Shown: positions 12,817 to 16,412 of the stretch, piece after piece
Numbering within the stretch: the first letter of the stretch is position 1
Layout of the letters: every line of letters begins with the position of its first letter
Virus record (IMG/VR): IMGVR_UViG_3300030101_003361
Span: 44,470 to 64,469 of that record
Strand: one strand, 5' to 3'
DNA from: an uncultured virus (IMG/VR IMGVR_UViG_3300030101_003361)
Taxonomy: Duplodnaviria > Heunggongvirae > Uroviricota > Caudoviricetes
Length of the DNA: 20,000 bases
The notes under the pieces: model-generated
Told to the model about the DNA's origin: nothing
Database searches by the model: none
The model's input: the letters and a program-made list of their open reading frames with translations, nothing else
Made by a program: the position numbers and the translations under genes

Positions 12817-13602
12817 TTAATTTTGATAAATCTTTAAATGTTTTTCAGCATATAGATGTACCATTGAAGAACTTTTTATGCCGTGTATAGCAACGAAGTG
12901 TGCTAACTCTTTTAAAGCCAGCTCGTTAGATTTTAATTTAGCTAATATACGTTGCTTTTGCTTTCTAACATTTTCAACACGTATGCCAAAATAATTAGCA
13001 ATATCAATCATCTTTTTAGGCTTAGAGTAAATATCATCTAATCCAAAAAACATTTTTAACATTAAATGTTGCTTAGGTAAATATTTTTTAGACCATCCAT
13101 CTAAATACTCACCTAATTTATCATAACTATATTCATAAATCTCTTCTTCAACCATATTAATAATAGAACTATCAAACCAATGTGGAAATAGTTTAGTTAT
13201 ATACCCAAAACCACCGGTTATTTTCTTTTGTTCTTCATTACTCCATATACCTTTAATAGGTCTTTTAGTACCATCTGCATTAACTTTTATTCTATCTTTA
13301 AGAATACCAGTAATACTTTTTTTAAGATATTTAGAAATAGTTTTTTGCTTTTCAACTTTATCTTTAATATCATTAACTATATTCCATTTTATATTACGCC
13401 ATGATATAAGTAAAGCTAAATAACCTTCTTGAGTTAAATCATTTAAATCAACAACGCCTACAGCTCCATAATCTTTAGAAAAACTATTAGCTATATTTAT
13501 TGCCATTTTATAATATTCAAATGGAATATCAGTATTAGATTTTTTAACTTTTTCAAGTGTTGCAATATTTAACGAATATATTTTTTTATTAAAATTTTTC
13601 AT
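12817..13602 (-). CDS. Phage-encoded sigma70-family RNA polymerase sigma factor
   Basis: Region 2.2-like DLNDLTQEGYLALL; region 4 HTH LMLKMFFGLD...KKMIDIANYFGIRVENVRKQKQRILAKLK. Confidence 0.85.
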   Translation of the reverse strand: MKNFNKKIYSLNIATLEKVKKSNTDIPFEYYKMAINIANSFSKDYGAVGVVDLNDLTQEGYLALLISWRNIKWNIVNDIKDKVEKQKTISKYLKKSITGILKDRIKVNADGTKRPIKGIWSNEEQKKITGGFGYITKLFPHWFDSSIINMVEEEIYEYSYDKLGEYLDGWSKKYLPKQHLMLKMFFGLDDIYSKPKKMIDIANYFGIRVENVRKQKQRILAKLKSNELALKELAHFVAIHGIKSSSMVHLYAEKHLKIYQN

Positions 13603-16055: not shown

Positions 16056-16155
16056 GGAGGCGGATGAAACTAGGAATGACAGAGATGCACTCAGCGCCTT
16101 ACACTCTTAATCTGTTTATATCATCTTTCTACCTTTCGGCTTCCTGACTACCTCC
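16056..16155 (-). ncRNA. Candidate structured ncRNA 1 (~100 nt)
   Basis: Nested stems GGAGGT/GCCTCC, AGGAA/TTCCT and AGATG/CATCT, plus a GCC-GAAA-GGT tetraloop hairpin; GC-richer than surroundings; between tRNAs. Confidence 0.6.
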
Positions 16156-16158
16156 AAT

Positions 16159-16225
16159 ATGAAAACGACGGTTTGATTGCATTGGTATTTTAAATTGTAC
16201 CGCGTTCAGGTATATTCGTTTTCAT
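16159..16225 (-). ncRNA. Candidate structured ncRNA 2 (~67-nt hairpin)
   Basis: Perfect 10-bp terminal stem ATGAAAACGA/TCGTTTTCAT with inner TGA/TCA, GC/GC and GGTA/TACC pairings. Confidence 0.55.
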
Positions 16226-16228
16226 TAG

Positions 16229-16302
16229 GTGCGCGGGGTGGATTCGAACCACCGACCTCGAGTTTATGAGACTCGCGAGCTGTCCCGCTGCTCTACCGCG
16301 CA
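16229..16302 (-). tRNA. tRNA with CAT anticodon (Met; initiator-like D-arm)
   Basis: TGCGCGG/CCGCGCA acceptor, GAGC/GCTC D-stem, CGAGT-CTCATAA-ACTCG anticodon arm, GGTGG-TTCGAAT-CCACC T-arm. Confidence 0.93.
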
Positions 16303-16412
16303 ATATTATATCGTTTCCAATATTCTATTTCAAACAATTCAATTTGTTCTTTTGACATTTTTAATAGAACATTTTTTTTATTTCTTCTTTTTTTAATCAA
16401 CGTACTCTTCAT
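16293..16412 (-). CDS. Possible 39-aa basic peptide whose stop lies inside the tRNA 5' end
   Basis: MKSTLIKKRRNKKNVLLKMSKEQIELFEIEYWKRYNIAR*. Confidence 0.3.
   Translation of the reverse strand: MKSTLIKKRRNKKNVLLKMSKEQIELFEIEYWKRYNIAR

What the first reader, a model, noticed from the sequence alone, without database searches (positions are those of the whole stretch)
16056..16155. Unassigned ~100-nt structured RNA immediately upstream of tRNA-Gly
Seen: a closing stem, two inner stems, a GAAA tetraloop side hairpin and an apical region; it ends 4 nt before tRNA-Gly G1. I do not recognise it as a known family. Inference: tRNA processing (RNase P at tRNA-Gly) would release it as a discrete RNA. 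It could be a sponge/decoy (anti-defence, antitoxin mimic, 6S-like RNAP regulator) or a ribozyme.
Basis: partly seen in the sequence, partly recalled or inferred. Interest (0 to 1): 0.75.

Follow-up and report, generated by a model that had tools for sequence, protein, structure and literature searches.

The report
Phage knotted RNA with swappable modules
A marine bacterial virus encodes a 100-base knotted RNA of an uncatalogued family whose fixed core holds two sockets that relatives fill with many different folded RNA modules, some of them shared with other RNA carriers, so it looks like a natural display scaffold; what the modules bind is untested.

Summary
The element is real. It lies on the minus strand (16155-16056), between tRNA-Met and tRNA-Gly of a 64-kb phage that probably infects Bacteroidota. 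Single-sequence folding is unremarkable (z -1.06), but relatives settle it. In 102 of 104 metagenome pattern matches the P4 partner, which was not in the pattern, pairs 5/5 (permutation mean 33). The two inner stems cross, so the core is a pseudoknot. The GAAA hairpin and the apical arm are sockets: 97 distinct copies carry inserts of 10-89 and 27-100 nt. Some modules recur letter for letter (up to 34 nt) in a tmRNA-end-like carrier, and related ones occur in a sister pseudoknot or free-standing. No Rfam family matches. RNase P, theta ribozyme, Y RNA and UG27 features were tested and not met. Best reading (0.55, inferred): a stable chassis, cut out of the tRNA operon by host enzymes, that displays swappable decoy or aptamer modules under host pressure. 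A catalytic core remains possible (0.15). Discrete transcript ends were not shown. The scan noted similar portable pseudoknot or headless-tmRNA themes on other DNA, but no look-alike of this sequence.

The parts
16056..16155 (-). Pseudoknot-core small RNA (100 nt): P1-P2-P3 socket-P4-P5 socket-P2'-P4'-P1'
   Evidence: single copy in the genome
16150..16155 (-). P1 5' strand (closing stem), pairs with 16061-16056
   Evidence: 5 of 6 pairs show two-sided change in alignment A1; a 5-9 bp P1 in all 97 copies
16141..16146 (-). P2 5' strand, pairs with 16076-16070 (one bulged A in this copy)
   Evidence: four inner pairs invariant; one pair swaps U-A/A-U
16131..16140 (-). P3 socket, here a 3-bp GAAA hairpin; 10-89 nt in relatives
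16126..16130 (-). A-rich J3/4 linker, near-invariant
   Evidence: also kept in loci found without this motif
16121..16125 (-). P4 5' strand, pairs with 16067-16063 and crosses P2 (pseudoknot)
   Evidence: 200 of 200 cells paired, 4 of 5 pairs with two-sided change; 102 of 104 in the unbiased test
16113..16120 (-). A-rich J4/5 linker, near-invariant (variants with one more A or a first G)
16078..16112 (-). P5 socket: covarying internal-loop 'wrapper' plus a short terminal loop; 27-100 nt in relatives
   Evidence: wrapper helix changes on both sides across relatives; same wrapper also in the sister scaffold
16056..16077 (-). 3' strand carrying P2', a 2-nt linker, P4', one C and P1'
16158..16226 (-). 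Second, free-standing structured cassette in the same operon; absent or replaced in close relatives
   Evidence: 3 of 17 pairs compensatory against L014; its inner module occurs in other wrappers; absent in L001, different in L009
15978..16051 (-). tRNA-Gly(tcc); RNase P cleavage at its 5' end would define the RNA's 3' end (inferred)
16228..16302 (-). tRNA-Met(cat), first unit of the operon
16305..16333 (-). Promoter-like site directly ahead of tRNA-Met
   Evidence: best consensus match in the region, 11 of 12, but the total site count is near chance (15 against 11.6); resembles a recurrent phage motif

Best explanation
A stable RNA chassis that displays interchangeable modules. SHOWN: a fixed pseudoknotted core with two insertion sockets; modules that nest and reshuffle between sockets, between core haplotypes and onto other carriers in the same operons. 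INFERRED: the operon is transcribed from the promoter ahead of tRNA-Met, and host RNase P and 3' trimming at the flanking tRNAs release the RNA. The closed stem and knot protect it from decay, as a tRNA scaffold does in the laboratory. The exposed modules act in trans as protein-binding decoys or aptamers against host factors such as defence or stress proteins or their signals, and they turn over under host-driven selection.
For: Near-identical phages keep the same core and swap the P5 insert completely. 97 distinct copies hold 70 different P3 and 63 different P5 fillings. Exact 33-nt (P3) and 34-nt (P5) module matches occur inside a tmRNA-end-like carrier, which has 74 distinct versions in 81 loci. 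9 of 21 hand-picked module motifs occur in two or more defined carrier slots, and several also stand free. One tRNA-like gene carries a large insert in its anticodon arm (L067). Modules keep their structure by compensatory change, unlike unique guide spacers. The element is optional: L014 has the same two tRNAs without it, and 6 of 19 neighbour-gene loci carry it. Contigs from 3 of 4 RNA runs cover all or part of it.
Against: No ligand or activity was tested, and no module matches a known aptamer or host RNA (Rfam; no match over 10 nt to three RNase P RNAs). The window's own terminal P5 module was found only in P5. No stretch of 13 nt or more is shared between P3 and P5 fillings by exact match. 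One P5 family goes with one P3 wrapper in 28 of 29 copies, so some modules are coupled or linked rather than free. The core's unpaired bases are more conserved than a passive chassis may need. One search gave contigs only: no strand, ends or level, and DNA carry-over is possible.
Confidence: 0.55

Rival explanations
1. The core is a new ribozyme (self-cleaving or ligating) and P3 and P5 are tolerant peripheral arms.
For: Near-invariant unpaired A-rich linkers and invariant P2 pairs; a pseudoknotted junction; a sister family keeps the same linkers. Conserved core with variable periphery is the usual ribozyme pattern (own knowledge).
Against: No Rfam ribozyme hit even at E up to 10. Both ends are locked in P1 and the neighbour varies (tRNA-Met 33, tmRNA-like 18, tRNA-Gly 8, tandem 2, other 35, contig end 1, of 97), so there is no fixed substrate. 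The same tRNAs occur without it (L014). Catalysis would not explain why modules travel to other carriers.
Confidence: 0.15
2. The core is a shrunken mimic of the RNase P catalytic domain that binds the host RNase P protein or pre-tRNA, and the modules are secondary.
For: The helix order matches that of the fetched RNase P RNAs: closing stem, P2, hairpin, purine-rich linker, crossing P4 (compared by eye). The same operons co-opt tRNA and tmRNA ends. The sister family has an A-rich run before its P2 partner like the one in those RNase P RNAs.
Against: No bulged U in P4 and only 2 nt between P2' and P4', where the fetched RNase P RNAs have a long conserved linker. No RNase P covariance-model hit.
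Confidence: 0.12
3. A self-assembling structural RNA that dimerises through palindromic loops or loop-receptor contacts, like a miniature OLE, ROOL or GOLLD.
For: Several P5 families keep a self-complementary 6-8-mer with compensating or wobble changes, including the window's family. Such palindrome switching marks intermolecular bridges in OLE and GOLLD (PMC12286853, passages).
Against: Palindromes are not enriched overall: P5 34 of 63 against 32.1 expected, P3 20 of 62 against 34.6, tmRNA-like inserts 38 of 82 against 46.4. An excess at 8 nt or more in P5 (19 against 10.2) vanishes when families are weighted.
Confidence: 0.08
4. A cis-acting processing, stability or termination signal inside the tRNA operon transcript.
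For: Usually abuts tRNAs or tRNA-like units.
Against: Dispensable between the same tRNAs (L014); occurs in tandem (L080, L098, L137); carries large variable payloads.
Confidence: 0.05
5. A guide or antisense RNA whose variable part base-pairs with a target.
For: Constant flanks around a variable centre.
Against: The variable parts are folded and recur across phages. No complement longer than a chance 9-13 nt to the P5 insert in the phage's own genome. No reverse transcriptase in the 98%-complete genome. Host targets were not searched.
Confidence: 0.03

Closest known systems
GOLLD and ROOL RNAs (PMC12286853, passages seen; PMC5737381, passages seen)
   Same: Phage or prophage non-coding RNAs of unknown function near tRNA genes, pseudoknotted, with variable linker regions
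   Different: ROOL about 660 nt and GOLLD often over 800 nt, against 98-214 nt here; no Rfam match; no socket-and-module exchange in the passages read
Bacterial RNase P RNA catalytic domain (RF00010; PMC3488217, passages seen)
   Same: Order of helices and a purine-rich run before a crossing P4
   Different: No bulged U, no long conserved 3' linker, no specificity domain, variable P4 sequence
Theta (minimal HDV-like) ribozymes (PMC10879173, passages seen)
   Same: Small pseudoknotted RNAs beside tRNAs in phages of Bacteroidota
   Different: One pseudoknot with both ends in P1; not tied to tRNA 3' ends; no HDV-like Rfam hit
UG27 reverse-transcriptase ncRNA arrays (10.64898/2026.09.22.753630, passages seen)
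   Same: Arrays of about 150-nt pseudoknotted units with variable hairpins in Bacteroidota prophages
   Different: No reverse transcriptase in this genome; units sit among tRNAs; modules move between unrelated carriers
YrlA-type Y RNAs (PMC4201824, passages seen)
   Same: Phage-borne small RNAs; this copy's P3 hairpin fits the short Ro60-binding motif
   Different: That motif lies in a variable socket; no tRNA-like domain; no Ro60 gene in the genome
Engineered tRNA-scaffold aptamer display (own knowledge; PMC7590224 seen as a search listing only)
   Same: A stable, enzyme-processed carrier presents a foreign folded RNA
   Different: Here natural, with several carriers and nested, recombining modules

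Membership tests
Any Rfam 15 family | Score at or above gathering threshold | tested here: not met
   Window: only tRNAs. Best overlapping hits DUF805b 13.8 of 35.6 bits and SAM-SAH 13.1 of 40 on the other strand. 18 and 20 relative loci gave no hit on the core.
RNase P RNA | P1-P2-P3-P4 pseudoknot topology | tested here: met
   against the fetched RNAs, compared by eye
RNase P RNA | Universal bulged U in P4 | tested here: not met
   P4 is a continuous 5-bp helix in the 97 copies; feature defined in PMC3488217
RNase P RNA | Conserved region V linker before the P4 3' strand | tested here: not met
   2-nt linker here; long conserved linker in the 3 RNAs printed
RNase P RNA | Pre-tRNA cleavage or RnpA binding | not testable with these tools
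   needs biochemistry
Theta/HDV-like ribozyme | HDV fold with catalytic C in J4/2 | tested here: not met
   single pseudoknot with a different strand order; no Rfam hit; feature from PMC10879173
Theta/HDV-like ribozyme | Fixed position at tRNA 3' ends | tested here: not met
   72 nt downstream of tRNA-Met here; neighbours vary
Self-cleaving ribozyme of a new class | Site-specific self-cleavage | not testable with these tools
   needs an in vitro assay
YrlA Y RNA | Ro60 gene within 4 kb on the same strand | tested here: not met
   no TROVE match in the genome; criterion from PMC4201824
YrlA Y RNA | Conserved Ro60-binding motif and tRNA-like domain | tested here: not met
   motif only in the short-P3 copies, replaced in others; no T-arm in the element
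UG27 ncRNA array | Linked reverse transcriptase | tested here: not met
   no RVT_1 match; UG27's own profile was not available
GOLLD/ROOL | Large size and Rfam model match | tested here: not met
   98-214 nt; no hit
Fremin et al. viral candidate RNAs (PMC10690425) | Listed among the 10,006 anonymous candidates | tested here: inconclusive
   no motif or contig hit in the four readable files; the two zip files could not be searched and three more files could not be read

The most novel reading that the evidence does not exclude
These marine phages carry a natural combinatorial RNA library. Several stable carriers (this pseudoknot, a sister pseudoknot, a headless tmRNA end, a tRNA) display nested aptamer-like modules that recombine between carriers and neutralise changing host defence proteins or signals, an RNA counterpart of rapidly swapped anti-defence protein genes.
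Probability: 0.35. Interest if true: 0.92.

Novelty: categorically new. Interest (0 to 1): 0.8.

Why it matters
It defines an uncatalogued, strongly covarying RNA fold and shows a design principle known mainly from RNA engineering, fixed scaffold plus plug-in modules, at work in wild phages. The modules are dozens of naturally selected, pre-folded candidate aptamers that can each be tested on a common carrier. That makes the open question of what the unexplained RNAs in phage tRNA clusters do directly testable. If the core proves catalytic instead, it would be a new ribozyme class.

Tried and rejected
Single-sequence folding: not significant. BLAST against cultured phages found only tRNA matches or chance 24-40-nt pieces. 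A 15-nt 3' pattern gave 33 loci, of which 2 were true and already known. The first 17-nt pattern gave 2 true of 10. One search used mis-indexed columns and is discarded; one search is the corrected count. General palindrome or kissing-loop enrichment was rejected. Cellular homologues: 5 GTDB pattern hits, of which 4 are chance by eye and 1 (L193) lies on a contig with phage-like small genes. The covariance model over 151 genomes of that phylum gave L193 plus two weak hits without the core; only 25 candidates per genome were scored, so this is 'not found', not absence. RNA run X12 has no contig over the element, and uncovered parts prove nothing. Antisense targets in the own genome: none. Ten literature searches listed no paper describing this family; the library lacks most subscription journals. 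The likeness of the P5 wrapper to a GAAA-tetraloop receptor is recalled and untested, and the wrapper occurs with non-GNRA P3 fillings.

Full report
Setting. The window is the last 20 kb of a 64,469-nt virus record, 98% complete by the tool's estimate. It encodes a ligase, sigma factor, primase-helicase, Erf-like protein and MazG-like protein. The best cultured matches of its ribonucleotide reductase and primase are Flavobacterium and Cellulophaga phages at 59% and 41% identity, so a Bacteroidota host is inferred. The finding lies in a minus-strand RNA operon: promoter-like site (16333-16305), tRNA-Met, a 69-nt hairpin cassette, the 100-nt element, 4 nt, tRNA-Gly.

Observation. The lone sequence folds no better than shuffles (z -1.06), and Rfam has no family for it.

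Relatives. A 17-nt pattern found two close phages (2 of 10 loci) with identical flanks and wholly different centres. The neighbouring gene gave 19 loci, 6 with the element. A core pattern gave 16 true of 23 viral loci, one more with a long insert, and 102 metagenome loci. Parsing gave 97 distinct full-length copies; that parse required at least 4 of 5 P4 pairs.

Structure. The clean test is. The scan pattern held neither the P4 3' strand nor the P2 5' strand, yet 102 of 104 matches pair 5/5 in P4 (G-U and two offsets allowed). Permuting partners gives a mean of 33 and a maximum of 47 in 2000 trials. 97 of the 102 also show the P2 5' strand; the other 5 are cut by a locus end. On a 40-row alignment chosen for diversity, P4 is paired in 200 of 200 cells with two-sided change in 4 of 5 pairs. 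The whole structure is 87.6% paired against 76.9% in shuffles (0 of 500) and at most 54.4% when slid. Related sequences inflate such counts, but 13 P4 strand combinations occur. P2 and P4 cross, so the core is a pseudoknot closed by P1, with two A-rich linkers.

Ascertainment check. Because the patterns fixed the linkers, I drew a separate sample of 81 viral loci through a neighbouring tmRNA-end-like RNA. A covariance model found 16 strong hits in them; 5 are contigs already seen and 11 are new. The new ones keep the core with only small variants, so the conservation is real.

Sockets and modules. P3 holds 10-89 nt and P5 27-100 nt, with 70 and 63 distinct fillings. Fillings are nested: covarying internal-loop wrappers enclose further modules. 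The window's P5 is one such wrapper with a short loop, and its P3 is the minimal filling. Module families recur on several core haplotypes. One P5 family is tied to one P3 wrapper in 28 of 29 copies, by linkage or by a tertiary contact.

Other carriers. The same operons hold a tmRNA-end-like RNA with a G3-U70 acceptor stem and T-arm (sub-threshold tmRNA hits) in 74 versions with different inserts. They also hold a sister pseudoknot with the same strand order and similar linkers (24 true of 29 loci), free-standing hairpins, and in L067 a tRNA-like gene with a large insert. Exact matches of 33 nt link P3 to the tmRNA-like carrier and of 34 nt link P5 to it; none of 13 nt or more links P3 to P5. 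Of 21 motifs that I picked by eye, 9 occur in two or more carrier slots; the window's terminal P5 module is not among them, though its wrapper is.

Expression. Of 24 runs listed, four from four studies were laid. Contigs of X1 and X9 span the element or nearly all of it, X6 covers parts with a different insert, and X12 does not cover it. The X9 contig is 208 nt, stops 3 nt short of the element's 3' end and holds only RNA cassettes. These are contigs, so they show presence in RNA libraries, not strand, ends or level.

Mechanism. Shown: fixed knot, two sockets, portable folded modules, optional presence, position beside tRNA-like units (59 of 97 within 0-12 nt upstream of one). Inferred: release by host tRNA processing, stability from the closed knot, action of the modules in trans as decoys or aptamers, and selection by the host (0.55). 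Rivals: catalytic core (0.15), RNase P-core mimic (0.12), self-assembly (0.08; general palindrome enrichment failed), cis signal (0.05), guide RNA (0.03).

Comparison. It works most like an engineered tRNA-scaffold display (own knowledge) and sits where GOLLD and ROOL sit. It shares helix order with RNase P RNA but lacks the bulged U and the 3' conserved linker. It is not a theta ribozyme, Y RNA or UG27 unit. All papers were seen as passages or listings, none in full. It was not found in the cellular genomes searched apart from one phage-like contig.

Novelty. No Rfam family and no describing paper in ten searches. An anonymous listing in PMC10690425 cannot be excluded, because its zip and oversize supplements could not be searched. 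The scan's own index has no look-alike of this sequence but holds notes on portable pseudoknot modules and a headless tmRNA in other phages, which I did not test. Verdict: a real, new RNA family within a modular system, function untested; interest 0.8.

Noticed in passing
window 16158-16226 (-): Second structured cassette with compensatory changes against L014; its inner A/U-rich hairpin appears in other wrappers in relatives.
   Followed up: partly
L194-L274: Headless tmRNA-end-like RNA (G3-U70, T-arm) with highly variable inserts, 74 versions in 81 loci; not found in the window's own genome by ARAGORN.
   Followed up: partly
L289-L317; L196, L212, L229, L231, L245: Sister pseudoknot family with the same strand order, one socket and a palindromic 3' loop; covariation visible in two helices.
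   Followed up: partly
L067:417-556: tRNA-like gene of 140 nt with a structured insert replacing the anticodon loop.
   Followed up: no
window 19091, 17176, 16654, 12409 (-), variant at 16312: Recurrent two-part intergenic motif ahead of early genes, probably a phage promoter; one spacing accounts for 185 of 191 matches across loci, redundant loci included. The phage encodes its own sigma factor at 12817-13602.
   Followed up: partly
L023-L026, L019, L020, L028: Further unrelated closed-stem RNA cassettes at the same genomic position.
   Followed up: no
run X1 contig, between window 16059 and 16054: A relative carries about 58 extra bases between the element and tRNA-Gly, probably another cassette.
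   Followed up: no
L193 (G001:C16): A Bacteroidetes MAG contig carries the element with phage-like genes; it may be a prophage or a binned phage and could hint at the host.
   Followed up: partly
genome C1 3732-5903: Phage-encoded GroEL-like and GroES-like genes (named by eye from the translations) and several short basic proteins beside the structural module.
   Followed up: no
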